From contig NMRA01000058.1 of the NCBI GenBank assembly GCA_002633005.1, forward strand, positions 474,916 to 538,915: DNA of 64,000 bases, given 5' to 3'. The DNA is from Phoronis australis. Lineage: Eukaryota; Animalia; Phoronida. This document shows positions 6,296 through 55,037 of this stretch, in pieces; position 1 is the first letter of the stretch; every line of letters starts with the position of its first letter. Below the pieces are notes generated by a model, which was not told the DNA's origin, ran no database searches, and saw nothing but the letters and a program-made list of their open reading frames with translations. The position numbers and the translations under genes are program-made.

Positions 6296-6352
<57 letters not shown>

Positions 6353-6829: not shown

Positions 6830-6919
6830 CTTTGTTCTTGTCCTTCTTTGAAAGATAGCTCCAGTTTCTTTTCAAGGGCTGTCTCGTGTTGCATAAGAAT
6901 TTCAGATGTGTTCTTCAAG
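6830..6919 (-). CDS. SIX6OS1: SIX6OS1/C14orf39-like gene, coding exon 4 (90 nt, phase 2-2): (S)LKNTSEILMQHETALEKKLELSFKEGQEQ
   Basis: Acceptor gttttgtatag| and donor |gtaatt. Only one frame is open and it joins exon 3 in phase. K.T......HE matches the recalled human KPTCDVFRKHE. Confidence 0.8.
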
Positions 6920-7069
6920 CTATACAAAACATCAAAACAAAAAGGTGTTGAGAACAGAAACATATATGTACTTTTTCATTCAAATTATTGGGGCACTAAA
7001 GGTAGGAAACTAATGCGGGTAGTGCCCAAATCAGACACGAGTCGTCCTCCAAATGCTAAAAACACTCCC

Positions 7070-10000
7070 TACCCACTAAACGAGATCTTGTCAAACCCCA
7101 CTGATCAGGAAAAACTGTGGGGTTTGGCTGATTGAACTAGACCATGTTTATCCACCTTGGCTGTGTCGTGCTCAGCTCACAATCAAAGGGATCCCGTCTA
7201 GCTGCGAGTATTCATCGAGTCACGAGCGAAGATAATTGGCTTCGCACATGCGGATATGATCAGCTGATTATAATCTAGCCAAGATGACCGTACTTTTTAC
7301 GGAGAGCGTTTTACATAGCTTTGAGTTTAATATTTGAAAAGAGACAAAAATGTTGATACAACTTTGAATTTTTCAAATCGGTCCAGACTAAGAGATTTAG
7401 CAACACAGCAACACTTGCGATTACTTTCAATCGGCGTGCACGAATACAAAAATATAGGACCCAGGAAGTTATTTAGATTTTGGAACACATGCATTGCAAT
7501 ATTCAAAATACGTTTATTATGACTTTTACACTGCAAAACGACGACGTTTAATTTCATTGTGCTCATTCATTGTCAACCGTCAAATCGGAAATTTCCGAGA
7601 TGTGAACTGCGGCGTGCGCGTATGTATACAAAACACGTGATTGTTATGTTCCTGAAGTATGAACATTAAGAAACTTTAGCATGCCGTTATTATTGACAGG
7701 GACACGATAAATCAAATTTGGATTTTGACGATAGTCTTGATATAGCGAGCTGGCTGACCGCTGCGTCAGTGTCTCCGTTAGACCCAGAAATTTCACACAG
7801 CCTGGGAAGTTCACCTCGTCACCTTGTCTCCAACATGTAGATCGAGCCTAGGACTATTAATGTTTTACTCCACGGTAGAGCTAACGACCTTCGGCCTGTG
7901 CACACAAAATCTGTCAGTTAACCGGCACTCACCTTGCACGTTGTAGCCGTTTAAGTGAAAAACATTCTAATAAACGCTGGATCACGCACAGGGTGAAAAA
8001 CAACAGCAGCGTTTAAATTGAAACTTTATTTTTACATCAGACATCAGTGTAAGTCTAGAAGAAGCTCAAATTGCTTGAACGCTGTGACAGATATTTCAAC
8101 TGAAAAACTGGCAGGTAACTACAACACATCCATCCTCTACAAGAATCAAGTGAAAAAAGGACCGGGTAGCTTTAAATTTCGTCCTGGCTAAGACATGGGT
8201 TATACTAAAACTATAAATGTAGCGTAGCCAAGCTGAAACACAAAATAAATAACAGAGGGCAGAACTAATAAACTTAAAATAATACAAACTCTCGACGAAA
8301 CAAACGCCATTGTTTCGCATAATCCTCCGCCTATTGTAACAAACAAGTTTGTCGTTGATGACCCGCACGCGCTCGCTCACTCACTCTCATACGCAGACGA
8401 ACTTCAAAACGAGAGCGCTCGGAGGAGCGACACTTGGTGAAATTACGCGAAAACAGGACGATGGGGAGGACGACGACGACAATCATGACGACTAGTGAGA
8501 AATGAACAATATCTTATGAAAGCCCGTTTAAAACTCTATCGACCTGTACAGATTTCTGATCGGTCAATATACATGGCAAGAAAATCCCGGCACACAAAAC
8601 TATTTGCAAAAATGCCAAATTTGACAATTTTCTCCCCAAAATAACCACTTCCCTGCAAGTGCTAGAAAAAGTCTGACTACAGATTCAAAATGCTCGTCCT
8701 CACTAAGTTCTAACTATGTGGTCATAGTTAGCCTTTTACTAGCTACTTTTGTGGCAAATTTGATCTGTCTGACAGCCACTTGAAATCACACCCGGTTTCT
8801 CGGACAACAAACGACAGGGGTTGATAGCAAATTACAGCCACCAGTTTGCATCAAAAATAGGTAAAACTTGGCTTTTCTCATTCAAAAACACAAGTAAATA
8901 AGTTTCCTGGCAATTGTTGTCAACAATTTCCTCAAACCACCCGTCAAACCTGACACACGCCCTCAACATAAATTCTAGGGACTAGAAAATGCTCCGTGGC
9001 CGCGGCCTGACTGTCAGTGCTACCTACAGTCTTGAGCGAAAACAGACAAAATTAACGACGATGATTGTGATGATGAAGGTGGCGATGACGAACAACATCA
9101 TAACATTCATACGACAAACTTAGATGTCATAAATTAGTAAGAAATAAGCTACATTCTTGTTCAAATAAACTAAACCAACATCAATGCAGTAAGAGCGCTG
9201 ACGAACAGCGCTATCAGAAAATCTCAAATAATTCAAAAGGTAGACATCCTAGTGAAAAATGGAAAACTTCTTCTGAAAGCCCATTCCAAACTCTACCTAG
9301 ATTCAGTTTCGCAACATTCCCTAACTTTTTTGAAAAAATTGAAATTTTGCGTTTTTTTTGAAATTCAAAGTCAAGTAACTGGAAAACGGTAAGTCTGAGA
9401 AAAACGATATCGTAGAACTTTTGAAAGACAGTACTTTAAGGATTCCACATACAAAAATTCACATCATTGGATCTTTCCGTTAAAAATGCGACACCAGAAC
9501 GATTGAAAACGAGTGAAAATGTGCCACAGCCGCCATCTTGAAGGTGACTTCCGGTTAAACAAAATTTTATAAAAGCTGATAAATAGCAATAAACAAGTGA
9601 CCAGTTTGAAATTGATTGGTTCGCCAATGCGCCCTCTACAGGAGAAAACATTTTTGGCCAGATATCGAGGTGTGCATGCGTCATTGTCAATATTTCCGCC
9701 ATCATTAACTGGAAGTCAAAGTTTTTCGGCACAGTTGTAGCACGTGTTCTATAATAATCGTACCACGTTTCAGCCCTGTATGTTGAAAAATGCGGCCTCT
9801 ATGAGCATTTGACGGTGAAATCGGAAACAAAATGGCCGCTACGTCCGCCATTTTCAACCGATCATAACCAAAAACAATAGGCCTCCAGCACTTTCCGATC
9901 TACACGACGTTTGCAAATTTCGTGAGAATCGGACGAAAATTGCACCTGTAGAGTGCGAACAAAAAAAAATTGACGACAGCAACATACTTGTCGGAATTCG

Positions 10001-10545
10001 AAGAATTTCGCCAAGTAACAAACGTCACGTGACAACAACATGTGTTTTCATCCAGAGATTTTTCTTGTGTTGTGGGGTACGATGTAGTGCAGATTTGGAC
10101 TTAATCGCAATTAGTACTCCAAATGAACTTTAAAAAGTGTAAAAAACAAGGAAGATTTCAGGTTTGTTGAGTCAAAACTATATTTTTATTCAAGAATTCA
10201 ACTTTTCCTATTGACGATCGCGATTCAGCGACGTATTAGTCGGCAAGTTTTCGCCCTGGGATTTCAGCACAATTTTTTGAATAATGATCGTAATTTCACA
10301 ACGGAGTTTGTTTCCAATGCACCACAATTTTGTAGAAAGACTGTCATAGGCTACAAATACGTCATAGAGCGTAAATTTGATGAATCCTAGCTTCCGATTT
10401 TACCCGTTTCGGACACCGGGTTTCAACTGCCTTAGGCTTCAATAAGCATCCCCTCCCCATGAAATGAATTTTTCTAAGTGTTAGAGCCAATCATCTTTCC
10501 ACCAAGGCTAGGTGATGCTATGCCATTATTCTTTGCTGCATTATT
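7070..10545 (+). mobile_element. CATG-terminus non-autonomous element, family A, end-degraded copy interrupted by HINE 8409-10017
   Basis: Colinear with 49177-50873. Contains an extra 330-bp block (7978-8307). The right end stops at the Sola3 TTAA site. Confidence 0.8.
8409..10017 (+). mobile_element. HINE/Helentron-like element, family H1, copy 2, inserted in an A-run (TT on the other strand)
   Basis: The empty site ttcaaaacaaacg is seen at about 50133-50146. Subterminal inverted repeat acttggtgaaatt / aatttcgccaagt, terminal hairpin and GAC/GAT repeats. Confidence 0.75.
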
Positions 10546-10548
10546 TAA

Positions 10549-13330
10549 GAGTGACTCCATATAAATCCAACAGGTAGAGTCTATACCCAAAATCACCGAT
10601 TTTTTTGAAACTTAGTGCATTAGTATGGTTTGTTGAGATGTAGAAAAACCTCACTTTTTAAGAATTTTCAACAAAATTGGGCATCGAAGTAAGCATGTTT
10701 GAATGCATTTTACTAGCATGAGTGATAAGGTCAAAACAAATGAATAATACGAATTGAAAGGGCAGTGGCTGAATAATTTAATGGCATAACTTTTAAAATC
10801 CATTTTTAAATTTGTACGTTTTGAATTTGTGAGGCAAAAACGGCTATTTCACTGATGCCATTTTCGGCCAAATTTGGCACTCTGTAGCAGCCATAATACA
10901 CCGTTCCTGAAATTGACTTTATAATAATTTGTTAAGTCATTCCTAACCTGTTCATAATCTAAAATAAAAAATCTTGCCTCTAATGTAGTTTTTGCGTACA
11001 ATGCATTACACAAACTGCACTTCGTCCTTTTGCATGTTCTCAGTTGCATCTGCTGCCAATAGGGGGCTCTTGGAACATATAATTAGCTTGCGAAACACGA
11101 CATAAAAACCTCGTATTTTGGAGAAAAGGCAGACAGCATTATTAATTACCATTCTCTGAAAACGGCATTGATGATTATTGCTCATTACAAAAAATATGTA
11201 AATACGTAAATTAACTGGCATGCGCGGTTCTAGATGATAGATAGCGCTGCTTTTGTTTACGTGGAGACTAAAGACGCATCTAGAATAAGAGCAGTAACAC
11301 AAAAACCTTGCTATAATTCAAGACTGTGAGATATTGCCCTGCATTATAAATGAGAACACATGGTTTTGGATAAATTTTAGAGAGGTTCTAGTGTGACTGA
11401 ACTCACCCGTGCCTTGTTTCATATCTGCCTTTTTCATGCCACAGGCAAAGGAAGGCACCCAAGGTGAATATGGCGCCCTAGTGTTCAGTGCAAAAAATCC
11501 TTCAACTTGTCAATAGTCTTTGTAACTTTGGGTACATATTGTAATGTCCCTCCTGGTTGCTACAAATTTTAGTCGCCACCAGTCGTCAGAAATCTGGTGT
11601 TCCCGCCCACACACCGGGCACACTAACGCTGAATATTTCTGCCAGTGTGATCATCAGTGGTATAAAAAGGTACACATTGAGTCAATAGAAAATAATTCTC
11701 GAGAGACAAGTTTATTAATGACTCATTCATGACAGACATGAAGTAAACAGAAGTAAAGGTCTCGACTTCATATATCACAAATCTTTGACTGGTATGCTAC
11801 AAAACTAGGATAAACGTTGAGCTCATTTACATGTACCACTTCATTCAGTAAATCTGACGACATAACAGCATCTTCAGCAGAAATAGCATCGTCATAAACA
11901 TTGCTGCAGACAACCTCGAAAAAATCCACCAATCTGCGATTCAATTAATATCACAGGTAAACACTTTCCCAGTGGGTTCTCGTAATCTTTTCTCCATTTT
12001 GGCACTTCCGAGGGTGAACGTTTTTACCTGATTTATCTCCTTCATCGAATATGTTCGTCAGAAAGTTCTTAACCTTTGCTCAAAATGCCAAACCTATTGC
12101 TTCAGTATTCGTCTCATCCAAATAGTACTCTGAGGCTGCCTCAAATGACGCTCCGGTTCTTGCATCTGAAAGCATTTCTAACCACTGTCGTGCGATGTGG
12201 TCATACGTGGTTTCCCTCTGTAAATGTTCAGTGTGGTTACCCACATCCAAATGCTGACCTAGTTCTGCGTCTGTAGCAAAAACTTTCGAGTAACCTAGAT
12301 AGATACAAGGGAACTTTTGTTGAGGCTCTTCACTAGATACAATGCCAACCTTAACTCTTGGTGCTGAAAATCCGCCATGTCTAGAGATGTTATTGTCTTT
12401 TAGGGAAATAGGTATCCCATTTTCTCAGTATTTGTAAGAACTTACCGTCACCTACTTGGAATGATTTCCACACGCGAATTCCTTGGGTGGAATAGTGGGA
12501 ATTTGGTAATGAGTATTTTGGAAAAGACTTTGTTGCATTGACTGAACATGCATACACATAACATCCCTTCACACGGCCACTGGAAAGTAATGCTTCTTTC
12601 AAATCCAGAAAGTTTATGATATTGCTACCTTTGGCTACAAAGTACTTTGCATGTTGTTTGAGTGGAGCGATCTTGTGATCACAGAGATCCTTTCCATTCT
12701 GACTTTCACTAAAGTCATATCTCGAAACAGAAATGTCGATAGAATTTGACAAGGCTGCTACGTTCAGGAGGAGAGGAGTAGAGTGGTAACATCCAGCATT
12801 ACCTGACTCTTCCATGGCTGGTCCTGTTCAGTCCGAAATTCACCGACTCTGGGTAGTACGAGTCCGTACTTTGGCACAGGCCTTGCTTTGTGAGGTAGTT
12901 TCCTGTATCTCAAATGTTCAGTGGTGTCTTTGACATAACTCACTAAAGCACAACGCTTTTGAGATCGGATTTTTTGCAGAATAAACTCTAAAGGAACATG
13001 AAGGCCCATCAACATCGTCCGCCATTTTGTCTTTTTAAAATGCACTTGCTTCTCTCAAAACCAGTCATTACAAATATCAATTCTTACTCGTTTAATCTTA
13101 AAGGCATTTATTTCCGTTTATAAGTTCTACAGAGTGTTTAACTTAAGCTGATAATGTAAAAGAAATGAAAGAATACAAGAGGGTTACACGTACATTTTTT
13201 ATATATCCTCAAGGTTAACCTCAACTGACTCCCTCAGTGGGCAAAGGTCATCCGGCTCATTTTTGATACTAGTCACGTAATAAACCCGGAAAACATCTTG
13301 TTTTCATTTGAAAGAGTTTAGACTTGGTTT
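10549..13330 (-). mobile_element. Degenerate Sola3-like DNA transposon with transposase remnants
   Basis: Left terminus TTAA|GAGTGACTCC (GAG start plus TTAA is the Sola3 pattern). ORF 12390-12815 contains GNAGCYHS...RYDFSESQNGKDLCDHKIAPLK, resembling the Sola3 transposase core. Many stops and frameshifts. Right end not found. Confidence 0.65.
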
Positions 13331-14524
13331 CTATAACTATTTAAAGCAGACTTCTTGCCTAAAAGTTTGTTTGGTGGAAAAACTGAAAACATTTTGATGG
13401 AAGGGGGATTGTATTTTCAACTCATTAGACAGGCATCAATTTTCTGATGGACCTTTTGGATTTTGAAACCATATTCATGATCTGGGAGATATTGAAAGAG
13501 ATATAAGCTTTCAAACTGGACTCACTATGCAGAACAATAAAAGTGAAACCCGAGCCCTCCAGGGCAAAGTGAGTAAATTCTTCCCAGTTAAATAAAATAA
13601 CTATCGTATACTTTGTTTTTCAGAAATATTTTGTTTTCCAAAATTGTTTCACCTCCGGGTATAGATTATAGCTCGACTGATATTTACCCTAGGCAACAAA
13701 CCTTGTCCACATAAACTCTTGTTGCTTCCTTATTTTAGAATTTTCAAATATTATCACAGAAAGGTTTATACAGAAAGTGTCCTGAAATTAGTGAGAACAC
13801 GTGTGTATCTTTGAGATGTTACTTCATGGGACTTTTATGGTACAAGTTTCAGAAACTCCTACTCTTCTTAACTACACAACATGATATAATCTTAATAAGT
13901 GAAATGTTATCATGTTACCAGGATTTCATTAATAAATGCTCTAGAGACCAGGCAAACCCTAATTATACAGAAGTTAAGTTCTGCCGGTATAATTACTGTA
14001 TTCTAAGAGAAATTCAATAACCGAAATCATTTAGGTAAGCTACAATTAATACAGCCCCAGAAATGCAGTAAATCCAGGTTCCCATTCACTCTTTTGCACA
14101 TGAAGGAGTAAGACCATGCTCGGAAGACCAGGAGACACCTTTGTGCAATGCTCGATTGTCAGCCAGTAACGCCAGGATAAGAACCCGGGTCTCCCAAACG
14201 GGAGTCGGGAGCCGCACTGTCTCATGCCAGTTAAAATGCTTATCCATAATATTTCAGGATTCAAATTTAAAGTAGTCAAACCAATCTCCCCGTTAAAAAA
14301 TCATGTTGAATTATGAGGGTGATCCTCTAACTTCCTTTGCTACCACTAATTTAAGTCTATGGCATGAAAAAGAAGTTTTTGTTAACCAATTGAGCATGGG
14401 TCTATACCTCAACTCACAGAAGTTGTACTTGTATCATAATTTTATCAACTAATAATTATACCTGTGTTGTAACTAATAATGAAGCTTACTACTTGCTTAT
14501 ATGTCCGGTCTATAATGTTGGGCG

Positions 14525-16150
14525 TGATGGAGCTACACTGACGTCGGACTTCAGGCATGTCAGTTAAAACATACATCGGCGGATTGAAGTAACGGCTTTA
14601 GACGGCCTCAAGTGGAATAGCGCACACGATACAGTGGCGCCGTGATCCCGAGCGTAATTGGGTATTTACGTACCTTGGTCACTGATGGTCATCTCTTAGA
14701 ACTAAGGTATTTCTACAGGTAGGCGCCAGCGTTCAGTACGGCAAGTAATTCTTGAGAGAAAAGTAAGATCCCCCAAGACTCCGCTAGTTCACCATGTATT
14801 TTTAAGGTAAGCATGTGATTTGCTCCCTGCTATATAATTTGGCAACCAAACATGTGGTAATGACAGGTCTTCCTAATACTTTGAAGGTTTGAACTATGTA
14901 ACATATTATATACATTTTGTTTCTGTATTGAACAGCCAAAGCTGACCTCCCAAAATTTGTTCAAAGCAGTGCTCAACAATCCAACGATACTACTATTAAG
15001 CAAAAGGGGTGGTCGGTTGGCTGGGAAAATAATGAAGCAAAAACACATCATGTAAAAAGTCATCGAGCAAATCAAGAGTTAAAAAAACAAGTTTTTGACC
15101 ACGTGGAATGTTCGACTTGCTCTTAACGACAAGTTGATTTCATGCGCCGTTGCTTTTGGTTGGGCGCTTTCATTTTGGTGTCAGGAGTGAGTCCTTAAAA
15201 ACATTCCGTTAACCAAGACAAGTAGCTAATGTCACCACAATGGCTCATGTCTGCTTATATTCAAAGCAATGTGACAGTTTCTCCTTTTACTCTGCCATGA
15301 ATTCAGTGTTGAATTGAGAGAATTTGAGCCTGACAACGTATACGATTCGTATACGGTTTCCATCTCAAATAATATCGTTGGTCATGCACCAGCGAGTGTG
15401 CTCCTGTTTTTTCTTATTTCATTGCTCAGGGTGGTGATGTTTTGTGTACTGTCACAGGGAATCACAGAAAGGCAGGCCACGGACTTAATTAACCTGTCAG
15501 GCACCACTTTGTTGGTTCTTTAAGGGCAACGAAATAAATTTGACAAGAACTGTCTCAGTGATCAGTACATGCTGACACGAGTTCAACGCCTGAGTGAAAC
15601 AAAACAATTGTCTCCTTCAGTGAAGAGCATGAGAACACGGGCATGCTTTCAGTAACACTAGGACCAGCTACGTTAGGACCTATGCTAGGACCTATGCTAG
15701 GACCTATGCTAGGACCTATGCTAGGACCTATGCTAGGACCTATGCTAGGACCTATGCTAGGACCTATGCTAGGACCTAGCTAAAATCTAGCCAAAGTCGT
15801 GTGTTCTTATTTAAAATACATACCAATATCTCACGTAACCTCCCAACGTCTTGCTGTTTAGCGAGGACCTAGCGTTACTGAACGGGAAGCGGGTATTTTA
15901 CCGCCATCGTAAGGCAAGGTTCCGCTAACACTGATAGATTGTCACTGAAAGGTAAGGGAGTTGAGCATGTTTTGGAATCTTAGTTTTGTGCGACAAGTGT
16001 TCACACAAGCACAGACACTTTTCAGGAGGTCTCATCGTGAAAAATTAGGGGTGGGCGGCAAGCCAAGCATGGAAGCTTAAAAAAGAAAAATTGGAAAATT
16101 TTGGGGGTGGGCAGTAAGCCGAGCATAGGCGGTAACCCGGACAAGTACGG
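14525..16150. mobile_element. Tc1/mariner (pogo-like) non-autonomous element fragment
   Basis: Ends in ggcggtaacccggacaagtacgg|ta. Rearranged, mostly inverted homologous blocks occur at about 40030-41000. Confidence 0.5.
15674..15778. repeat. 12-bp tandem repeat (TAGGACCTATGC)n, about 9 copies
   Basis: Directly visible, near-perfect array. Confidence 0.95.
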
Positions 16151-16428
16151 TACTCCAAACCTTTGTCATCTCATTTTTGAATGTCGTAGTAAGCAACTGA
16201 TTTATTAATTTCTACGCTATGCTGAGCTTTTCTTTGTTTAATATTTTTCAATATGTTAGTTCTTTTATCTCATATGATTTCCTTTTCTTTTGTTTTTTTC
16301 CTTTGTGTTATTAGCCACTATTATATTTTTACTTAAATAATTTATGGCTATGTACATGTAAGGTTACATATAATGATTCATTTTCTGGGAAAATTCCCTG
16401 TACAATTATTGTACTGTGTTATACAAAC

Positions 16429-16555: not shown

Positions 16556-16744
16556 CTGTGAACGAACAGAACCACTTCATAAATCACACAATTCTCTGGA
16601 ACTGTAATACATCAGAAATTCATTTGCAATCTACAAAGTTGACAACATGTCAGTCATATTTTCTTAGCCGTGCCTGTGAAATCCAATGGGAAACTAGGTG
16701 TAAAACATGGGGAAAATCACATAAATTTATACTAAAATATGTTA

Positions 16745-17910
16745 TTTTTGCCATGTTGAGAAACTAGTGCTAAGTATTACCTTTCTACTTCCCAGGGTGA
16801 GAATTTTACACGTTTGACACTCTTGAGCTTGTCAAATGCGTCAAACATGTAAAAAGCGTGTAGTATGTGTCAAAATTGCCACGCTAACGTGTAAAACGTG
16901 TAAAATTTTACACACTAGCATGTCAAATGTGTAATGTGCCACTCTAGCTTGTCAAACGTGTAAAAGTTGACACGCTAGCTAGCGTATCAAATGTGTAAAT
17001 ATGATAGAACTCTTCAATAGAGATACAATTTAAATAGGCTTGGCAGTTCTGAATAGGTCGCTGAGAGGTAATCACCCAATTTGAATGACTAAACATGTTC
17101 CCTTAATAATATAAAAGAATTTGCAACAAAAGTATTTCACTGCCTTTTCAAATGTACAAATACTGACAGAGATACAGTTGGTTTAGCTGTCAGAGAGTGC
17201 AGTTGAGTCAGGAGACCACTTATGAAGCATGGTTTTCGAGTGTGATGCAGCTCTAGATGTTTGGTATGTACGTATTCTAGTTGACAGTGGCTTGTTAAAC
17301 CTTTCTTGCAAATGGTCTTTCTGTTAAACAAGTAAGTTGGACTGTAACAGAAAACAAGAGAGTCAGTAGAAACACACTACATGTGTCAATCATGGAGTAT
17401 TAGAACAAAAATTACACATTTTTGTCACGTTTTTGCCACCTTTGACACGCTACATTTTACACGTTTGACATGTCACGTTTTACACGTTTGACACTAGACA
17501 CGCTGTTCCAATACTCCACTTTCTCAGAGGGTGTAAAACCTGTAAAACTCTAACCCGGGTCATTAGCTTAGATCGACATGAATAGAAAGGGCTTGCTAAA
17601 TAGGCATTATAAAAGTTTTCTGAGGGCAAAGAGAATCTCAGGGTTGACCAGTGTAAGTGAGAAGTTCTCTACATGTACTTTCTTGAGTTAAAATCGATAG
17701 TTCTGCAGATATTTGGCTAAAAACACAGACTTGTATGTAAAGTTATGTAGGACTATCTCTGCAAGTCAGTGTATTTATCCAAATAGACTTGCTATAGATT
17801 TTAACTCAGTAAAAGTACATATTTTCTATTAGGCTGGTAAAATTTGGTTTTTGATCTTTAACCAATATGCCATTAATGGCATCATACGGCAATGCCTGTT
17901 TAGTAAAATT
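16745..17910. mobile_element. Foldback/long-inverted-repeat element, family F, copy 1, hosting a MITE
   Basis: Imperfect palindrome centred near 17747 (atgtactttcttgagttaaaatc / gattttaactcagtaaaagtacat). The arm is homologous to 37060-37200 and, inverted, to 41820-41945. Confidence 0.5.
16792..17559 (+). mobile_element. CCCGGG-terminus MITE (CACTA/EnSpm-like), family M, copy 1
   Basis: TIR CC(A/C)GGGT(G/T)AGA(A/G)TTTTACA, 2-bp TSD TC, and many ACACGTTTGACA subterminal repeats. The empty site gcttcattagc is visible near 37091. Confidence 0.8.
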
Positions 17911-17989
17911 TAGCAAACAAAAAGTTACATTGATAACAACGTGATTCACATCCTTTGTGAATTTTGGCACTTTAAATTATAACTTTGAT

Positions 17990-18540: not shown

Positions 18541-18544
18541 TTTA

Positions 18545-20402: not shown

Positions 20403-20487
20403 GTCATTGTTCTGAAGTTGTATGGCTTCTTGTTTAGTATTTTGTGTTTTTGAATTAACCTGGCAGATGGTGCTCAACAACTAAACA

Positions 20488-20505
20488 TGGTGGCAGCGGT
20501 GGGAT
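20488..20505 (+). promoter_or_regulatory. Primer-binding site complementary to the tRNA-Leu 3' end
   Basis: TGGTGGCAGCGGTGGGAT immediately follows the 5' LTR and is complementary to ...AUCCCACCGCUGCCACCA. Confidence 0.85.
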
Positions 20506-37057: not shown

Positions 37058-37268
37058 TGTACAGAAAGTAGTGCTAGCCATTACCATTTTGCTTCATTAG
37101 CTTGAATACAAAGAGCATGCTAAATAGGCATTATAAAAGTTGTCGGAGGGCAAACGGAATCTTAAGAAGACCCGTGTAAGCAAGAAATTCTCTATATGTA
37201 GTACACTGCGCAATTTGTTGTGAATGACTAATTTTTTGGGTTTATAATGTACACTCTGTAAAACACAT

Positions 37269-43330: not shown

Positions 43331-45087
43331 CATGTCATGAACACATCCATTACCACAAAAAACTGTAGGAACACAGCATTTATCCACCTTCACTCTTATC
43401 AGGCTTCTATTGTGAGTCAGCATGACTGATAACCCACATATGGAACTACTTTTGGCTGAATGGATGTCCAGGCCATAAAATGATAATTAGCCAAGACCAG
43501 TTAACTAATGCAACAAAGAATAATGTCCCAGCATCATCTAGCCTTGGTGGAAAGCTGTATACTGTATTGGCTCTAATAAACGCTTAGAAAAATTCATTTC
43601 ACGGGGAGGGGACGCTTATTATAGCCTAAAGCAGTTGAAACCCGCCGGGTTTCCGAAACGGGTAAAATCGGAAGCTACGATTCATCAAATTTACACTTTG
43701 TGACGTATTTGTAGCCTATGAGTCTTTCTACAAAATTGTGGTGCATTGCTATCAAACTCCGTTGTTAAATTACGATCATTTTCAAAAAATTGTGCTGAAA
43801 TCCCACGGCGAAAACTTGCTGACTGATACGTCGCGGAATCGCGACCGTCAATAGGGAAAATTGAATTCTTGAATAAAAATGTAGTTTCGACTTAACGAAC
43901 TACCTGAAATCTTCCTTAGCCTATGTTTTACAATTTTTAAAGTTCACGTGGAGTCCAGATTAATTGCGATTAAGTCCAAATCTGCGCTACATCGTACCCC
44001 ACAACACGAGAAAAATCTCTGGATGAACACACGTTGTTGTCACGTGGCGTTTGTTTTGAAGTTCGTCTGCTTATGAGAGTAAGTGCGTGTGCGGGTCATC
44101 GACGACAGACTTTTTGTTACATAAGGCAGAGGATTACGCAAGAAAACGGCGTTTACTAGATTTAATTGTTTTTCACTTAAACGGCTGCAACGTGCAAGGT
44201 GAGTGCAGCTGGTTAACTCACAGATTTTGTGTGTACAGGCCGACGGTCGTTAGCTCTACCGTGGCGTAAAACATTTGTAGTCCTAGGCTCGATCTACATG
44301 TTGGGGACGAGGTGACGAGGTGAACTACCCGGGCAGTGTGAAATTTCGATCTGGGTCTAACAGAGACACTGACGCAGTGGTCAGCCAGCTTGCTTTATCA
44401 AGTGTAATTATAGTCAAAATCCAAATTCGTTTTATCGTATCCCTGTCAATAATAACGGCATGCTAAAGTTTCTTAATGTTTGTACTTCAGGAACATAACA
44501 TCACGTGTTTTGTACACATAAGCGCACGCCGCAGATCACATCTCGGAAATTTCCGATTTGACGGATGACAATGAATGAGCACAATGAAATTAAACAGCGT
44601 CGTTTTACAGCTTCTAAGATTCATAAGAAACGTATTTTGAATATTGCAATGCATGTGTTCCAAAATCTAAATAACTCGAGTCCTATATTTTTGTATTCGT
44701 GCGTGCCGAATGAAAGTAATTGTGAGTGTTGCTGTGTTGCAAAATCTCTTATCGTGGGTCGATTTGAAAAATTCAAAAGTTTTACTCATGTTTGTTTTCG
44801 CCCCTTTTTTCAAATATTACAGTAAAAACTACGTAAAACTCTCCACAAAAAGTACAGTCTGCTAAGCAAGATTGAAATCAGCTGATCATATCCGCATGAG
44901 CGAAGCCAAATATCCTCGCTCGTGACTCGATGAATAGAGCAGCTAAGCGGGATCCCTTTGATCATGAGCCGAGCGTGACTCAGCCAAGGTGGATAAATTC
45001 GATCTAGTTCAATCTGCCAAACCCCACTGTTTACCCTGATAGGTGGGGTTTGAGCCAATCTTATTTATTGGCAATGTTTATAGTATG
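43331..45087 (-). mobile_element. Family A element, full-length inverted copy
   Basis: Termini CATGTCATGAACA / TGTTTATAGTATG with 2-bp TSD GT. Confidence 0.87.
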
Positions 45088-45932
45088 GTCCATTGGCAAC
45101 TGCTCATGTGATGTCATGGGCATATATCAGCCTTCACAAATATATGTATTTTGCCAATCTTAACCGTTGTTTGTAAGCAGAGTTTCGAAACGGTCGCCGA
45201 TTTCGGCAGCCATTTTGAATGAGGCCCTAAAGTTGTGACCGTTCCGTTTAGACAGAAATGCACGAAGTAAGACCACACAAATCAACAACAGTGCTTACGG
45301 TTACTCTAGACAACATAAAAACACATTGCAGTGTTTATCAATTCAGTTTAAATTAGTATGTGTTTTGCACCCAACTCCGATGTGCACAGACGTTTTCAAT
45401 GAGGATGCTTACGTCAAACGCGAAGAACCCAGAATCAAATTATCTCTCTGTATTTTATTGCTTTAGCTTTAGGGGTAGTTCGGGAAAACTCGGACGGCAG
45501 TAAAATTCAGACAAATCTAAATAAACGTCAAATATATTAACAATCGAGATGCCTTACCACTAAATGAACAATAGTAGGAATTTATTTATCACCTCACTTG
45601 AATTGCAACAAAGTTTCAACAGATATGAGGCATGTTCAGCACCTTATGTCGCTCTGCCGTCTGCATCGTGTGGTGATTTCGAAAGTCTGAGGTAGGTACA
45701 CTGTCTTTTCCAAGTTTTATTTAGGTCACTTGGTCACTTGTCGTGTAAATGAACTTGAATTTGCTTGATGCATAATTCATCACTATGCAGTTTTATGTGT
45801 TAATTCCAATAGAAAAACTTACAAAAAAGCATGTCGATTTAATAAAAAAATGGTGTCAGTCCGAATTTGGAAGGGCACTCCAACTTTTTGTATGCTGCGG
45901 GGAAATTCAGACACCCGTGTTTTTAGGCTACT

Positions 45933-47270
45933 CAGGGCTCGACGCTATTAAAATCGCCAGGTCGCATTTTGCGACCTAGCCAAAATCCCAGGTCGCATTT
46001 TCAAAATCCCGCTCGCATTCGTAAATGCCAGGTCGCAAAATTTTCCCGCCATTTTAACGCGCCAAAATAGATTTTTTTAGATCATCGAGAAAATGTTTAG
46101 ATTATGCTCTTACCTGCAGCGTTAAATGCTCACAAATTTCGGATCTCAAAATTGACTTCATTCATGCAGGTACGGCCTTACTGTTCTTCACGACTGCCAT
46201 TGAAAGTCTAGAGCGCAAGCCAAGTTGCCGGCGTGAAAGTTGAATCAGTGCTCTCTAACTGACTTGTGCATTCGAGTAGCTAAATTTGCGAAGTGAAAAG
46301 GGAGAAAATGCCCGTTGAAAAAAGTATCTGGGATTTTTTTAGATCTGGTCTGCTACTGGCCGTCATCAAAGTCGTTAACGATTCAAACNNNNNNNNNNNN
46401 NNNNNNNNNNNNNNNNNNNNNNNNNNNNNNNNNNNNNNNNNNNNNNNNNNNNNNNNNNNNNNNNNNNNNNNNNNNNNNNNNNNNNNNNNNNNNNNNNNNN
46501 NNNNNNNNNNNNNNNNNNNNNNNNNNNNNNNNNNNNNNNNNNNNNNNNNNNNNNNNNNNNNNNNNNNNNNNNNNNNNNNNNNNNNNNNNNNNNNNNNNNN
46601 NNNNNNNNNNNNNNNNNNNNNNNNNNNNNNNNNNNNNNNNNNNNNNNNNNNNNNNNNNNNNNNNNNNNNNNNNNNNNNNNNNNNNNNNNNNNNNNNNNNN
46701 NNNNNNNNNNNNNNNNNNNNNNNNNNNNNNNNNNNNNNNNNNNNNNNNNNNNNNNNNNNNNNNNNNNNNNNNNNNNNNNNNNNNNNNNNNNNNNNNNNNN
46801 NNNNNNNNNNNNNNNNNNNNNNNNNNNNNNNNNNNNNNNNNNNNNNNNNNNNNNNNNNNNNNNNNNNNNNNNNNNNNNNNNNNNNNNNNNNNNNNNNNNN
46901 NNNNNNNNNNNNNNNNNNNNNNNNNNNNNNNNNNNNNNNNNNNNNNNNNNNNNNNNNNNNNNNNNNNNNNNNNNNNNNNNNNNNNNNNNNNNNNNNNNNN
47001 NNNNNNNNNNNNNNNNNNNNNNNNNNNNNNNNNNNNNNNNGGTTAGTGTTCTTTTGAACTTGTATTTGGCAACAACCAAATAACGGTCGGATTAACAAGA
47101 GCTGCTTTGTATTTGCCAGGTATCTGTTGAGAAGTGTAAAAACTCAGCTCGCATTCGTTGGAAATTCCAGGTCGCATTTTGCGACTTTATACGAGCTGAC
47201 AAAAATCTCAGCTCGCATTTCCAAATTTCAGGTCGCAAATGCGACCTGCAGCTCGTTATGTCGAGCCCTG
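45933..47270 (+). mobile_element. hAT5-type non-autonomous element, family h2, copy 1 (spans the gap)
   Basis: TIR CAGGGCTCGAC / GTCGAGCCCTG, TSD CTACT on both sides, and GGTCGCA subterminal repeats. Confidence 0.88.
46389..47040. other. Assembly gap (652 N)
   Basis: Run of N. Confidence 0.99.
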
Positions 47271-47978
47271 CTACTTGACACTTTTCTTGACGTTTTCTTG
47301 TGAGATTTTCGTAATCACGTGATGACCTACTGTTTTAAGAGGTCAATACAAAACTTAATTTGTCAACAACAATGGCGCTGTTTACCATGTGGGCTGCACA
47401 CAAATTGGTAAGGAGGGCGGACGTACTTTTATGCTGTTTATGTGGCTAGGACATGATGACTTCTTAAATTTTATTATTTGTCTAAATTCATTTTTGAAAT
47501 CATAAAGTACTGTTATTTTGTCAGAGTTTTACCTATTCAAAATTTGCTGGTCCGAATTTCCCCCGACACTCTGTCCGACTTTCCCACCTGCGTCCGAATT
47601 TCCCCGATTTTGACCATTATTATTATTCTTAAAATTCGAAGGCATTGGAAGTGAACTAGTAACAAAGAATCTCATTGGTTGGTTTTTCAAATGACTTGCG
47701 GAGATCCCATTACTACTCTAATGTTATTAGCTTACACATAGACCTTCAGTACGGTAGTAGGCAAGCAAGTCAAGCCTAGGTTTTGTCCGAATTTACTCGA
47801 ACTTCCCCTACAAAACTTGACCGACCCAGGGACATTTTGATACACTGTTCAAACTACCCCTGGAGCGCATGTTTGAGCAAATCTGAACAGTGTATATTTT
47901 CAAAAATATTTTCTGAAAATGCACAAAACCTGGATTGGTGAAATATGCTGATTTAAGATACATTTGAAAAAAAGAAGC

Positions 47979-50900
47979 TACTGACGGCATTTTTTCTTTC
48001 ACGGTGCAAATTTAGATTTTTTTATGTTATGCAATCATATTGACAAAATTCCTTCACCTTTGGCAGATATTGTATGATGATCTTGTTTTAGCACTGGTAC
48101 TTATGACATTTACGCATTGTAAAGTATGAAAAAATGTTAATTATGGCCAGAGTAATCATTGATATAGCTGAAAATAGCCAGAAATCCACCATTATATTGT
48201 TTCACTGAAACATTGCAGGTTTTTAATACACATGGCATTTAATTAAATCGCACATGTAATTGAAATTTAATGTTTTTTATAATCCTAACATGTATTTCTT
48301 GTTTTTCTTCAGGAAATTGCAGGGATCTGAAAAGTCAAACACAATTTTCAGGCACAATTGAAAAATGATGTCAATGTTATGCAAAACACATAAATTTGCA
48401 TATGCTCCTCTTACAGCCATGTCTGAAGAAGAAAAGCATTACTACTGTTTTGAACTGTGTTTTTTAATGGTTTATGGTATATAGAATTTGATTTAGAAAC
48501 CACATATTTGTACTAGATGTCCTAGTGATTGGATTCCTCGACCAAATAATATCACAGTCACCTAAGAAAAACTGTATTCTCCGTAACCCTGCCTGAATTC
48601 CATTAAATTCTTCCATAAATAAAAGATATTTGATACTGCACATTGAGAATCTTGAAGCTATTTTTGGCCCACAAAAAATATTAGACCAAGACCTGGATTT
48701 GAATTGGTCATGAGCAAAAATGTCTTTCGTATTCTCCGTAGCCCCTGTATTCTCCGTAGCCCCCAACTTTGAATTGTTAGTACATGGTTTGAAAAAACTT
48801 GTATCTAGGAGCATGTACTGAAGAAATAGAAACAAATAAACACTCCAAGACAAGAAAAATTAAAAGAAAAATTACTTATGGGCGGGATTTGAGGCAACTT
48901 TAGCTAAAATTACTTTTTCAATTTAAACTCGTTATTAATAAAACATGAATGTTCTTTGGTCATTCAGAAGTGTTGGTATTAACAAGTAAATGAATTATAT
49001 TGCATTGCTCAAGTGTTCATCCACTTATGAACAGGTATCTGCATATTTCGTATTCTCCGTAGCCCCCCTCCATGACCTCTGTGTTATGTGAGATTTATGC
49101 ATTCAATGTTTCCTGGTGATGAAAAGTGCTTTCCTGTATTTCTTTGAGGGTAGTTGATGGAAATAGGCACCCCATTCATGCTATGAACAGTCCCACTAAA
49201 TACGATTGGTTCTAACCCCAGTGGTTAAGGTAAACGGTGGGGTATGGAAAATTGAACTAGACCGTATTTATCCACCTTGGCTGAGTCGTGCTCGGCTCAC
49301 GATCAAAGGGATGCCGCCAAGCTGCTCTAGTCATCGAGTCACGAGCGAGGATAATTGGCTTCGCTCATGCGGACATGATCAGCTGATTACAATCTAGCTA
49401 GCAGACTGCACGGAGCGAAAACAAATATCAGTACAACTTTGAATTTTTCAAATCGGCCCAGGATAAGAGATTTTGAAACACAGCAACACTCACGATTACT
49501 TTCATTCGGCGCGCACTAATGCAAAAATTTAGGACCCAAGTTATTTAGATTTTGGAACACATGCATTGCAATATTCAAAATACGTTTATTATGAATCTTA
49601 CAAGCTGTAAAACAATGTTGTTAATTTTATTGTGTTCATTCATTGTCATCCGTCAAATCGGCAATTTCCGAGATGTGATCTGCGGCGTGCGCGTATGTGT
49701 ACAAAACACGTGATTGTTATGTTCCTGAAGTACGAAAATTAAGAAGGCTTTAACATGCCGTTATAATTGACAGGGACACGATAAAACGAATTTGGATTTT
49801 GACTATAGTCTTGATACAGCGATCTGACTGACCACTGCGTCAGTGTCTCCGTTAGACCCAGAAATTTCACACAGCCCGGGTAGTTCATTTCGTACCCAAC
49901 ATGTAGATCGAGCCTTGGACTATTAATACTCCACGGCAGAGCTAACGACAGTCGGCCTGTGCACACAAAATCTGTGAGTTAACTAGCACTCACCTTGCAC
50001 GTTACAGCCGTTTAAGTGAAAAACAATCTAGTAAACGCCATTTTCTTGCATAATCCTCCGCCTTTTGTAACAAAAAAGTCTATCGTCGATGACCCGCACA
50101 CGCACGCTCACTCACTCTCATACACAGACGACCTTCAAAACAAACGTCACGTGACAACAACATGTGTGTTCATCCAGAGATTTTTCTCTTGTTGTGGAGT
50201 ACGATGTAGCGCACATTTGGACTTAATCGCAATTAATCTGGACTCCACATGAACTTTAAAAATTGTAAAACATCAGGAAGATTTCAGGTAATTTGTTGAG
50301 TCGAAACTATATTTTTATTCAAGAGTACAAGTTTTCCTATTGACGATGGCGATTCAGCGGCGACGCATCAGTCGGCAAGTTTTCGCCCTGTGATGAGCAC
50401 AATTTTTTGAAAAATTATCGTAATTTAACAACGGAAGTTCATAGCAATGCACCACAATTTTGTAGAAAGACTGTCATAGGCTAAAAATTCGTCACAAAGC
50501 GTAAATTTTATGAATCCTAGCTTCCGATTTTACCCGTTTGGGAAACCGGCTTTCAACTGCCGTAGGCTACAATAAGAATCCCCTCCCCGTGAAATGATTT
50601 TTTCTAAGCGTTTATTAGAGCCAATACAGTATACAGCTTTCCACCAAGGCTAGGTGATACTACGACATTATTCTTTGTTGCATTAGTAACTGGTCTTGGC
50701 TAATATTATCATTTTATGGCCTGGTCATCCATTCAGCCAAAAGTAGTTCCAGAGGTGGCTTATCAGCCAATTATTCACGCATGCTGACTCACAATAGAAG
50801 CCTGATAAGAGTGAAGGTGGATAAATGCGGTGTTCCTACAGTTTCTTGTTTTAGTGGATGTGTTCACGACATGTTGATGGTGAGGTGACTCTGATGACAG

Positions 50901-52383
50901 TTAAGAGCTGAGTATGTCCTAGGATAAAATTTTATTTTCTATTATGTTATATTTTTGTATTTGCACAAGTGTGAAGAAAATTGAGACAGTATTATCTCCC
51001 TTTTTCTAAACACAACTGTTTTTCGTAATTCAGAAGTAGTAGTATTGACAAGTAAATGAATTCTTTTGCATTGCTCCAGTATTTTTCTTCCCACGAATAG
51101 TTACCTTCGCATTTTGTATTCTCCGTAGCCCCCCACTGACCTCTGTGACATGTGAGATTTATTTGTGCAAACAATGTTCACTGATAATGAAAAGTGTTTT
51201 CTTGTACTTCTTTGATGGTAGTTTATGAAATTAGGCATTCCTTTTGACCGTAATGTGACTCTGATGATAGTTAAGTGCCAAGTATGTCTAAGGATTAAGT
51301 ACAATTGCTATGTTTTATTTGTATACTCACACCTTGTGAAGCATACACAGGTGTGAACCTAGTTTTTTTATATTGATGTTCAGTTATCAAGTACATGAGT
51401 TACCAGAGTAACAAACTTTCATGTTCCTAAGCCAGATTTAAGCCTTTTCCAACATGGATGTAACGATACCAATGATGAATTCTCCGTAGCCCACATTTTT
51501 TATTTTTCTTATATCAACAGGCCAAATCTTAAAAACTAAATCAGGATACTTCACTAAAATTTAACCCGATATTCCCTGTGTCATGTTGAATCCAAAGCTG
51601 AAATTAAAACTTAATAAAATGCCATTTCTGAAACAAAAGTGGGTATGAATTTAATCCCTACCATGTTTCCTCCGTATTTTATCATCGAATTTCGGTTCGC
51701 ACTATTTCCCGGTTGACACCGCCATGTTAGCTCAACTTATGATTACAGCGACACCTGTTGTTAATGAATGTAACGGCTTCATTGATTTTGAATGGTGTTT
51801 GCCTGCACGAGATTCCCACTAAAGTTTTCCTGACATGATATGAAGGAACAAGTAGCAGCATTTCACCTGTTCCAATTTTTTATAATTGTGACCATTTGAC
51901 CATTTTTCCACGAAATTGTTTGAAGTGCATACCATTTTCACAAATATGGACCTCCAAAACAACTTCCGCTTTTTTCGCGGTTTCGTGCTAAAAGATGCGT
52001 ACCAGGGTCACTGTAGGATCAAATTCAAACCCTTGGCACCATAACTCGGGCGGGGGATAAACGAGTCTCGGTCAATTTGACCAGATGAAAAGTGACGATC
52101 TATAGAAGTCGGTAGATTAGTTAAGTTTTTGAGTTTTGAGTACCAGGTAACTCCTTCCATTCAACATGGCAGTATTACTAATGCGCACCGGGAAATAGTG
52201 CGAGCAGAAATTTCCCGATAAAATATTAAAAGAATGGGGTAGGAAAAATTGCTAAGTATTTTTGGAAATATAACTTTGCAAGGAATCAAACGATACCAAA
52301 ATCATATGTGTAAGTCAATATCGTCATATTGTAAACAATTACCCACAAAAGTGTGCACCCTCAGGGAAAAAATGCCGTCACTG
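47979..52383. mobile_element. TIR element with repeated TATTCTCCGTAGCCCC motifs (possibly Tc1/mariner-like)
   Basis: Imperfect TIR tactgacggcatttttt..ggtgca / tgcacc..aaaaaatgccgtcactg. Motif near 48730, 48748, 49050, 51117 and 51480. One copy of an internal duplication is split by family A. Confidence 0.55.
49177..50873 (+). mobile_element. Family A element, full-length copy (about 1.7 kb)
   Basis: TIR CATGCTATGAACA / TGTTCACGACATG and 2-bp TSD TT. A paralogous empty site is seen at about 51230-51300. Confidence 0.88.
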
Positions 52384-54570
52384 CAGGGCTCGACATAACG
52401 AGCTGCAGGTCGCATTTGCGACCTGAAATTTGGAAATGCAAGCTGAGATTTTTGTCAGCTCGTATAAAGTCGCAAAATGCGACCTGGAATTTCCAACGAA
52501 TGCGAGCTGAGTTTTTACACTTCTCAACAGATACCTGGCAAATACAAAGCAGCTCTTGTTAATCCAACCGTTATTTGGTTGTTGCCAAATACAAGTTCAA
52601 AAGAACACTAACCGAGAATAGGCCTCCCGATGACTTGTAAGCAAGTCGCGTGAACATGGGATATGCAGAATCGATTTTTGACGCGTTTCATTGGCTAACA
52701 CTTTCAGCCACTTTTGTAAATTCCCGGATTCGCCAAAGAAAGTTTTGGGCCACTGCTTACACGTGATAAAACTTCACAAAACAACGGTGTTTCTATTAAT
52801 TCTTAAGCGATCAACTTACCAAACTTTGTGGTGGACAAAAATGCTTATTTTTCACATAAGATGTCCTTATTACATGTACCAAATATCCATGACAATATCC
52901 CTGATATTGCACTGCGCCGCCGTTAGCGCGCAAGCGGTCCCGGCAGACAATCGTGACTTAGACGGAGATGTGCTTCTCCTTTTTATCGTATTAAGACAGC
53001 CAAAATAAAAATGACAACCTTATTAATTGCCAAACGACGGTCACGTCTTTACTTTCAGTTGCCAAGAAATTCTCAAACCCTTTACTTGTTTCTGGGGCTA
53101 CGTGCGCGAAATATGATTTGTCTTTCACACGTTGTTGCCAACGTAAAGTGTAGGCCTACTCCAGCGATTCAAGTGCGTGAACTCGCGTGCGCACCACTTC
53201 AAAGAACAGCGACAGTCCTTGATGAAAGAGTATACCGGCTTGGCTCTGGTTTATTTGAAAATGAACTCAGTTTCCCAGCGGTTATAAAAGACCCGATGTC
53301 CCGGGACCAATATAACCCAGAACTAACGTTATCCTGTTCCGATGTTTCCCCGAGGTCGATGTTCTGTAAGCCCTGTAGGCCTATTCTATGCCCGTAGCCA
53401 GCTATTGCAACTAAACTGGCACTAGATGCGAAATTGTGGTTCAAGTTAGCGAACTTTTCATTCTTCGCTTGATACACCCCCCAACTTTTCGCTCCCAGAA
53501 CCACCGTCACCGTAAAATGTTCAGACTCCTATAGAAACAACCTTGTTCCGGCTGAAGCGGGCAGTTAAAAAAAATCATTCCGGGAGGCTAAAAAGGGTAC
53601 AATGTAGTTGGTAACGATATCCAGAAAGTCACCCCTACCAGATGGAGTTTGCATCGCAAAATCGTATTATTATAACGTTTTTTACCATTGCAGCGTTTTA
53701 ATATCTTATTACCGCAAACACTGAGGTTAACGACTATGCTCGCGCACAAGCCTACTCCCTACCTTTAAAGTGTTTCATAATAAGCGCTCACTGATCTATT
53801 AAAAGTCCCCCCTGAAATTTTGAGAATTTCCAATTAAGCACCCACAGTTCAAGCTAGCGCCCATCATTGCGCACTACAAACGACCGCGTGTGGTTTAAAT
53901 ATGACACGCACCTTATATGGTGTGTATCACTTTCATTTTACACAACTTCAGTTTTCAAACACGTCTTTTTACAATATGTAAAAACCAAATCCCGGCTTTG
54001 TTTTATACCTCGGAAAGAAAGTTAACACTAGTGACGTGCGTGTCGTTTTGCGACTGACCTATTTTTTCCGTACTTGGAAGGTATTGAAGAGCAAACTTGC
54101 GATTACCCGAGTTAGTTTGAATCGTTAACGACTTTGATGACGGCCAGTAGCAGACCAGATCTAACAAAATCCCGGATACTTCTTCAACGGGCATTTTCTC
54201 CCTTTTCACATCGCAAATTTAGCTACTCGAATGCACAAGTCAGTTAGAGAGCACTGATTCAACTTTCACGCCGGCAACTTGCCTTGCGCTCTATAGACTT
54301 TCAATGGCGGTCGTGAAGAACAGTAAGGCCGTACCTGCATGAATGAAGTCAATTTTGAGATCCGAAACTTGTGGGTATTTAACGCTGAAGGTAAGAACAT
54401 AATCTAAACATTTTCTCGATGATCTAAAAAATCTATTTTGGCGCGTAAAAATGGCGGGAAAATTTTGCGACCTGGCATTTACGAATGCGAGCTTGATTTT
54501 GAAAATGCGACCTGGGATTTTGGCTAGGTCGCAAAATGCGACCTGGCGATTTTAATAGCGTCGAGCCCTG
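52384..54570 (-). mobile_element. hAT5-type family h2, copy 2 (2.2 kb, inverted, no matching TSD)
   Basis: Both TIRs are intact. The ends are near-identical reverse complements of 45933-46388 and 47041-47270. Flanks are CACTG and GAAAT. Confidence 0.88.
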
Positions 54571-54988
54571 GAAATGGTTTTTTTGGCAAATTATTCATCA
54601 TAAAAAGTTCTTTAAAATGATGTATTACATGTCTATTTACACGTTTCTTAGTTTTGAAATAATAATTATTTTGAACTAGCAGATTCGATTTGACAGAATT
54701 TTTACCAAAAATTTTGACACGAAAATGACATTTTCTCCGGAACCATAAGTCCAATTTAAAAAAATTTACGATCGTTATTTTAGTCTCGAAAAGAGCTTTC
54801 TAATGATGTATATTACATGCACATTTTCTAACATTTTTGAAAAATGCTGTTCTCCCTACCTGTGGTCCCAAGCTGTCAAGGCTAACAGCAAACTGGCTGG
54901 CTACCATCGACCTATCACTATGCCAACTGTAGTTATTAGGGATTGAAACAGATAATATTTGCTAAGACTAAATACCCAAAATACTTGC

Positions 54989-55037
54989 CCAAATTACAGA
55001 GGAGTTTATCAAGATTTCCATTTTCAGAAGACTGCAT
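54989..55037 (-). CDS. SIX6OS1: SIX6OS1/C14orf39-like gene, first coding exon (49 nt): MQSSENGNLDKLLCNL, GC donor
   Basis: ATG in the context gcgaacATG. The donor G|GCAAGT gives phase 1, matching exon 2. LDKLL falls at positions 9-13, like the recalled human LDRLL. Confidence 0.72.

What the first reader, a model, noticed from the sequence alone, without database searches (positions are those of the whole stretch)
6830..55037. Hidden SIX6OS1/C14orf39-like synaptonemal-complex gene in an apparently invertebrate genome
Seen: four minus-strand exons (49+57+127+90 nt) with compatible phases splice to MQSSENGNLDKLLCNLEFENQQFVKLIEKERQQISALEKNIEENQVKMTQLQESTSNLDQDTKAAHRQFLQNRYNYESLKNTSEILMQHETALEKKLELSFKEGQEQ. 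None is in the ORF track. Recalled knowledge: human SIX6OS1 begins MNDSLFVSLDRLLLEFVFQYEQ...QRINKCCEDIKENKV...KPTCDVFRKHE, and the two align without gaps from Met1 (LD.LL 9-13, F18, Q22, E28, Q32, I34, I41, EN.V 43-46, K.T...HE). This N-terminal coiled coil is the SYCE1-binding region. As I recall, the gene was first described as vertebrate-restricted. Inference: the TE landscape (Kolobok, Sola3, HINE, LOA) suggests an invertebrate, which would imply an older origin of this central-element component. Coiled coils can give spurious matches, so this needs confirmation.
Basis: partly seen in the sequence, partly recalled or inferred. Interest (0 to 1): 0.82.

Follow-up and report, generated by a model that had tools for sequence, protein, structure and literature searches.

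The report
Invertebrate SIX6OS1 gene, spliced and expressed
Four small exons spread over 48 kb are spliced in RNA into the start of a gene that is likely this invertebrate's copy of SIX6OS1, a protein that zips paired chromosomes together in meiosis, but invertebrate copies are already in print, so it adds a member rather than a new idea.

Summary
The gene is real. Intron 1 is GC-AG. Against a published alignment of 8 vertebrate SIX6OS1 proteins (compared by eye) the peptide aligns without gaps from Met1 and matches 14 of 36 conserved columns (3.1 expected, P about 4e-7; best shifted register 8). Its second intron sits at coding base 106, phase 1, as in mouse. No profile search confirmed the family, but only single exons could be searched. 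CpG o/e 0.78 argues against a vertebrate. The novelty claim fails: SIX6OS1 is already reported in Nematostella, binding SYCE1 (PMC13693662), and in Bombyx (PMC12956816). What is added: intron-position support for orthology, an unnamed relative of exon 3 (56% identical), and frequent frame-shifting skipping of exon 3. The scan's notes held no earlier SIX6OS1 finding. New member of a known kind; interest 0.3.

The parts
54989..55037 (-). coding exon 1 (ATG to codon 17 base 1; 49 coding nt), GC donor
   Evidence: its 3' end is the loose end of 18 (X1) and 12 (X2) exon-2 reads
54860..54988 (-). 129-nt extension of exon 1 to a downstream GT donor; minor form with a stop after 33 codons
   Evidence: 4 of 22 exon-2 reads with a 5' loose end in X1, none listed in X2
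34504..54988 (-). intron 1, 20,485 nt, GC-AG, phase 1 (after coding base 49)
34447..34503 (-). coding exon 2 (57 nt, codons 17-36)
   Evidence: RNA depth 24 and 17 confined to the exon in X1 and X2
16556..34446 (-). intron 2, 17,891 nt, GT-AG, phase 1 (after coding base 106, same place as in mouse Six6os1)
   Evidence: mouse position read from the repair oligo printed in PMC7467691
16429..16555 (-). coding exon 3 (127 nt, codons 36-78), often skipped; skipping shifts the frame
   Evidence: unnamed relative P0001 56% identical over the same span
6920..16428 (-). intron 3, 9,509 nt, GT-AG, phase 2 (after coding base 233)
   Evidence: joint in 32 and 24 reads
6830..6919 (-). coding exon 4 (90 nt, codons 78-108), ends at a GT donor; the gene goes on, probably left of the window
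   Evidence: no convincing exon 5 among 11 candidates in 1-6790
55038..55060 (-). probable 5' untranslated part of exon 1 behind a pyrimidine-rich acceptor; implies an upstream non-coding exon as in mouse
   Evidence: sequence only, not tested with RNA

Best explanation
[quoted passage not shown] Shown: exons, junctions, strand, sample-restricted expression, ungapped match to vertebrate SIX6OS1 from Met1, one exactly shared intron. Inferred from mouse, human and Nematostella work: residues 1-67 form a helix that converts the SYCE1 dimer into a 1:1 complex, the following helical region makes a second contact, and the complex is needed to recruit SYCE2-TEX12 and extend synapsis. Inferred from the reads: a sizeable share of transcripts is unproductive (exon 3 skipped, stop after 36 codons; or a downstream donor, stop after 33), so only the four-exon form can give the whole helical region.
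For: (1) Junction reads in X1 and X2. (2) By eye against the 8-vertebrate alignment in PMC5095591 Suppl. Fig. 1: no gap from Met1 to 107; identity 22 of 107 to human, 29 of 107 to chicken and to coelacanth; 14 of 36 columns kept in at least 7 of 8 vertebrates match (Met1 left out), 3.1 expected from composition, P 3.9e-7; ten shifted registers give 0-8 matches, mean 3.9. Matches fall in all four exons (3 of 7, 5 of 9, 2 of 10, 4 of 10). (3) Mouse genomic oligo printed in PMC7467691 leaves the protein sequence after codon 35 plus one base at a GTAAGT donor: intron at coding base 106, phase 1, as here. The two mouse guides in exons 2 and 3 bracket the first coding intron between about bases 30 and 57; here it is at 49. 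The 4-residue insertion of the turtle model lies at codon 77/78, the place of intron 3 here (indirect). (4) The only hit among 1.84 billion representatives for exon 3, P0001 (E 2e-4, 56%), matches over the exon's span, so the exon is conserved in another genome; at 8 of the 18 positions where it differs from the window it carries a residue seen in the vertebrate column. (5) No proline, heptad-type hydrophobic period (p 0.03). (6) Expression in 2 of 3 raw runs only fits, but does not show, a germ-line gene. (7) Invertebrate orthologues exist, so the prior is not low.
Against: No Pfam family matched any single exon, bare or extended, at E up to 10; word-index searches found no full-length relative; ESM Atlas gave no usable or no relevant hit; PDB gave only a weak kinetochore OKP1 match (E 0.045). 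The spliced peptide itself was never searched against a library. 15 of 23 invariant vertebrate columns differ, among them W79 and P81 of the vertebrate W-K-P-T motif, K27, C76, I55, N56. A shift by one heptad still gives 8 matches, so the composition P value overstates the case. The alignment and shifts were counted by eye. Only one of four intron positions is exactly checked. The downstream parts (rest of the helical region to about residue 260, FxF tail) are outside the window. Tissue of the runs, SYCE1 partner and synteny are unknown.
Confidence: 0.85

Rival explanations
1. An unrelated coiled-coil gene whose N-terminus resembles SIX6OS1 by composition and heptad pattern.
For: All library searches with single exons were blank for SIX6OS1; identity only 21-27%; the +7 register scores 8 of the conserved columns; W79 and P81 missing; two earlier scan notes on SYCP1 look-alikes failed such tests (unchecked).
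Against: The best register is the one that needs no gap, starts at Met1 and puts an intron at the mouse position and phase; non-heptad residues F18, T82, H89-E90 match; P0001 adds independent vertebrate-type residues.
Confidence: 0.09
2. A true SIX6OS1 homologue that is decaying or no longer works in the synaptonemal complex (weak GC donor, heavy exon skipping).
For: Roughly 15 of 20 (X1) and about half of 13 (X2) reads leaving exon 2 skip exon 3; 4 of 22 reads in X1 use a stop-bearing donor. Nematostella mutants show that conserved SC proteins can differ in role (PMC13693662 abstract).
Against: Open frame through four exons; exon 3 conserved at 56% protein identity in another genome; junction 3-4 is the best-supported joint (32 and 24 reads); mouse Six6os1 is also alternatively spliced.
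Confidence: 0.04
3. A different central-element coiled-coil protein (for example SYCE1-like) that shares remote ancestry with SIX6OS1.
For: SC central proteins are short helical proteins with rapid divergence; no SYCE1 sequence was compared here.
Against: Register from Met1 and the intron at base 106 are those of SIX6OS1; PMC5095591 describes it as a gene without paralogues.
Confidence: 0.02

Closest known systems
Vertebrate SIX6OS1 / C14orf39 (human Q8N1H7, mouse NP_083381; PMC5095591, PMC7467691)
   Same: Ungapped N-terminal alignment from Met1 over 107 residues; 15 of 37 conserved columns; intron at coding base 106 phase 1; ATG a few bases inside an exon that follows an acceptor (shown in mouse, sequence-only here); helical, proline-free N-terminus.
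   Different: 21-27% identity; W79, P81, C76, K27 not kept; introns of 9-20 kb where the mouse first coding intron is about 90 nt (inferred from the 124-bp deletion); GC donor at intron 1; no Six homeobox motif in the window, synteny untested.
Nematostella vectensis SIX6OS1 (Williams et al., Sci Adv 2026, PMC13693662)
   Same: Invertebrate orthologue identified by its N-terminal region; binds SYCE1 in 4 of 4 two-hybrid assays there.
   Different: Its sequence (fig. S4, a picture) was not seen, so no direct comparison; the paper's main text has no occurrence of 'exon' or 'intron'.
Bombyx mori LOC101738502, labelled SIX6OS1/corona by jackhmmer (PMC12956816, Dataset S2)
   Same: By eye, with a 4-residue offset, 7 of 29 identities over window residues 58-86; it also lacks the vertebrate W and P at the K80 motif.
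   Different: Far more diverged, not in register from Met1; orthology there rests on jackhmmer as stated in the table.
P0001, unnamed 65-residue gene call on a 3.7-Mb ENA contig
   Same: 56% identity over 41 residues, matching the span of exon 3.
   Different: A single-exon fragment with a spurious N-terminus; no name, no context available.

Membership tests
SIX6OS1 / C14orf39 | Conserved N-terminal helical region alignable from Met1 | tested here: met
   14 of 36 conserved columns, no gaps, P 3.9e-7 by composition, best shifted register 8 (counted by eye)
SIX6OS1 / C14orf39 | Hit to the Pfam S6OS1 profile / reciprocal best hit | tested here: inconclusive
   Single exons of 23-54 residues gave no family; the spliced peptide was not searched; no reciprocal search
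SIX6OS1 / C14orf39 | Shared intron positions and phases | tested here: inconclusive
   1 of 4 exact (base 106, phase 1); intron 1 inside the bracket set by the mouse guides; intron 3 at a turtle-model insertion; intron 4 untested; two paper searches found no human splice-variant positions
SIX6OS1 / C14orf39 | Vertebrate W-K-P-T ... H-E motif at residues 79-90 | tested here: inconclusive
   K80, T82, H89, E90 kept; W79 and P81 not kept; the Bombyx protein also lacks W and P, so these may be vertebrate-specific
SIX6OS1 / C14orf39 | Helical region to about residue 260 and disordered C-terminus with FxF repeats | not testable with these tools
   Downstream exons not found in the window; no genome held
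SIX6OS1 / C14orf39 | Binding to SYCE1 (residues 1-67, 10-21 needed) | not testable with these tools
   No SYCE1 sequence of this organism available; L9, D10, L13, F18 of the interface region are kept
SIX6OS1 / C14orf39 | Germ-line (meiotic) expression and central-element localisation | tested here: inconclusive
   Expressed in X1 and X2, absent from X3; tissues not given
SIX6OS1 / C14orf39 | Neighbourhood of SIX6 (vertebrates) | tested here: inconclusive
   No homeodomain motif in six frames of the window; only 9 kb upstream of the ATG are visible

The most novel reading that the evidence does not exclude
SIX6OS1 keeps the same exon skeleton (introns at coding bases 49, 106, 233, 323) from this protostome-type invertebrate to mammals, and its dose is set by regulated unproductive splicing: a weak GC donor and frame-shifting skipping of exon 3 cut the protein at 33-36 residues, before the SYCE1-binding helix is complete, acting as a splice switch for synapsis comparable to the SRSF1/BCAS2 control of mouse Six6os1.
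Probability: 0.15. Interest if true: 0.55.

Novelty: new member of a known kind. Interest (0 to 1): 0.3.

Why it matters
It adds a transcribed, apparently unannotated bilaterian invertebrate member to a fast-evolving meiotic family once thought to start in cartilaginous fish, and shows that intron position can serve as evidence of orthology where profile searches on fragments fail. That helps fill the gap between Nematostella and vertebrates and offers a bridge for testing proposed links to Corona, SYP-4 and SCEP3. The headline, a pre-vertebrate origin, is already published, so the gain is incremental.

Tried and rejected
No genome held, so no downstream exons, SYCE1 or synteny. Pfam on 4 bare exons and on 4 extended exons plus P0001: no S6OS1 (P0001 gave two weak unrelated families below cutoff). 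Word-index protein searches: exon 3, longer proteins, 0 of 2 candidates; two-sequence profile, longer, 0 of 29; near length, only P0001. ESM Atlas: no usable hit for exon 3, only sub-0.9 unrelated clusters for P0001. PDB sequence search: OKP1 at E 0.045, 12 residues, rejected as chance. No RNA holder listed by the run search; the runs came by species label. Exon 5 search in 1-6790: 11 candidates, none convincing. No second copy of any exon in the window. Rfam 0, tRNA 0. Pfam on 70 other open frames: only retroelement domains and one weak GDSL match. The mouse SRSF1-dependent event in Six6os1 involves exons of 139 and 58 nt by my subtraction from form lengths 288 and 207, so it is not the 127-nt exon skipped here; the idea of the same conserved event was dropped. 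Papers PMC9128100, PMC10767963, PMC7895996, PMC11833701 gave no exon positions or invertebrate survey. One paper search with loose terms returned nothing on SIX6OS1 among 30 listed. No fold or complex job was sent: a single 41-residue exon is uninformative and no SYCE1 partner was on hand.
Full report
Observation. With boundaries 55037-54989, 34503-34447, 16555-16429 and 6919-6830 the exons are 49, 57, 127 and 90 nt, join to 323 nt and read 107 codons without a stop. No whole genome is held.

RNA. The run search listed three raw RNA runs and one contig set, all by species label; 18-19 in 100 of each raw run was read. On 6400-16800 the joint 6919/16429 (9,509 nt skipped, GT-AG on the minus strand) stands in 32 reads with 24 starts in X1 and 24 reads with 20 starts in X2, in 0 reads of X3 and 0 contigs of X4. 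X3 laid 4,115 reads on intronic repeats, so its blank on the exons is not for want of the organism's kind of RNA, though tissue is not given. On 34300-34650, 24 (X1) and 17 (X2) reads cover exon 2 and nothing else; 37 of 41 are 99% or more alike. Their 5' loose ends are the end of exon 1 (18 and 12 reads), which fixes a GC-AG intron; 4 further reads in X1 come from a GT donor 129 nt downstream, a form that stops after 33 codons. Their 3' loose ends are mixed: in X1 (20 reads, agreement 0.82) the consensus is the start of exon 4; in X2 (13 reads, 0.64) the letters next to the junction are exon 3 and the farther ones exon 4. From the agreement values about 73 in 100 (X1) and about half (X2) skip exon 3 (rough). 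Seen from exon 4 the skipped share is about a third in X1 and a fifth in X2. Skipping shifts the frame and stops after 36 codons. The counts do not balance (32 reads at junction 3-4, about 5 at junction 2-3 in X1); loss of coverage near the 5' end or another upstream partner of exon 3 could explain it, and I could not test which.

Identity. Library searches were limited to single exons and found no family: Pfam, word index, Atlas, PDB. phmmer over 1.84 billion representatives gave 1 hit, P0001 (E 2.1e-4), an unnamed 65-residue gene call on a 3.7-Mb ENA contig that is identical at 23 of 41 positions over the span of exon 3. The positive evidence comes from papers. Supplementary Figure 1 of PMC5095591 (file 1, part 1 of 2 read) prints eight vertebrate SIX6OS1 sequences. 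Compared by eye, without gaps from Met1, the peptide is identical at 22 of 107 positions to human and 29 of 107 to chicken and to coelacanth. Of 37 columns kept in at least 7 of 8 vertebrates it matches 15; without Met1, 14 of 36, where composition predicts 3.1 (P 3.9e-7). Ten shifted registers (1, 2, 3, 4, 7 either way) gave 0 to 8 matches, mean 3.9, the highest at one heptad, so coiled-coil periodicity inflates chance but does not reach 14. Of 23 invariant columns 8 match (L9, L13, F18, Q32, E43, T82, H89, E90) and 15 do not, including W79 and P81. At the 18 positions where P0001 and the window differ, P0001 has a vertebrate-column residue at 8 and the window at 7.

Intron positions. The methods of PMC7467691 (passages read) print the mouse repair oligo for the 10-21 deletion. 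It shows an acceptor 8 nt before the ATG, codons 1-9, codons 22-35 plus one base, then a GTAAGT donor where the sequence leaves the protein. That is an intron at coding base 106, phase 1, the place of intron 2 here. The two guides are stated to target exons 2 and 3, which brackets the first coding intron between about bases 30 and 57; here it is at 49. The turtle model's 4-residue insertion falls between residues 77 and 78, the place of intron 3 here; this is indirect. Intron 4 is untested; two searches for human splice variants gave nothing usable.

Source. GC is 39%, CpG o/e 0.78, well above the 0.2-0.4 that I recall for vertebrates. Earlier scan notes on this genome call it a marine, likely lophotrochozoan invertebrate (unchecked). 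The rest of the window is repeats: a LINE with DUF4780 and RT at about 58.5-62.4 kb and a decayed Gypsy-type element at 20.6-23.1 kb; 53 more open frames had no Pfam match; no homeodomain motif, no second exon copy, no Rfam or tRNA hit.

Mechanism. In human and mouse, SIX6OS1 residues 1-67 turn the SYCE1 core dimer into a 1:1 complex, residues 10-21 are needed, a second contact lies further along residues 1-262, and loss of either blocks central-element assembly (PMC7467691 passages). In Nematostella SYCE1 and SIX6OS1 interact in 4 of 4 two-hybrid assays. I infer the same role here (0.85); binding, localisation and germ-line expression are untested. The skipped and extended forms end at 36 and 33 residues; human 1-22 alone does not bind SYCE1, so they are probably unproductive. 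Mouse Six6os1 is alternatively spliced under SRSF1 and BCAS2 (passages), but the listed event involves exons of 139 and 58 nt by my subtraction (supplement file 3 read whole), not this exon.

Novelty. Since then Williams et al. (bioRxiv abstract and passages; Sci Adv 2026 passages and supplement text) report Nematostella SIX6OS1 and an alignment of N-termini 'from various metazoan species'; figs. S4 and S5 are pictures that I could not see, so whether this lineage is already included is open, and their SYCE1 alignment does include lophotrochozoans. A Bombyx orthologue is named in PMC12956816 (passage and supplement row), and structural likeness to SYP-4 and SCEP3 is proposed in PMC12711579 (passages). 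The Sci Adv main text has no occurrence of 'exon' or 'intron', so the intron evidence and the exon skipping were not met in what I read. The scan's own notes held no SIX6OS1 finding.

Verdict. Observation confirmed; identification likely; significance already known in outline. New member of a known kind, interest 0.3.

Noticed in passing
window 16429-16555 (-): Exon 3 is skipped in a large share of reads (exon 2 joined to exon 4), giving a stop after 36 codons; junction counts suggest exon 3 may also have another upstream partner (skipping exon 2 would be in frame, 88 codons).
   Followed up: partly
window 54988-54859 (-): Intron 1 has a GC donor; a GT donor 129 nt downstream is used by 4 of 22 reads in X1 and brings stops.
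   Followed up: partly
window 10564-13339: Intronic repeat with strong one-directional RNA depth (about 50-120, opposite direction to the gene) in X3, the run that lacks the gene's exons; reads are mostly 90-95% alike, so probably from other copies. Open frames at 12080-12827 have no Pfam match.
   Followed up: no
window 58515-62406 (-): Broken LINE with DUF4780 and reverse transcriptase, 3.5 kb upstream of the start codon.
   Followed up: partly
window 20661-23058 (+): Decayed Gypsy-type LTR element (protease, RT, RNase H pieces) in intron 2.
   Followed up: partly
window 18793-19902 (+): 370-codon open frame with a weak GDSL/SGNH match (E 0.0012, below cutoff), possibly the esterase of a LINE ORF1.
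   Followed up: no
window 24516-24808; 57208-58033; 46389-47040: 14 copies of a 21-mer; a 413-nt tandem duplication; a 652-base assembly gap inside intron 1.
   Followed up: no
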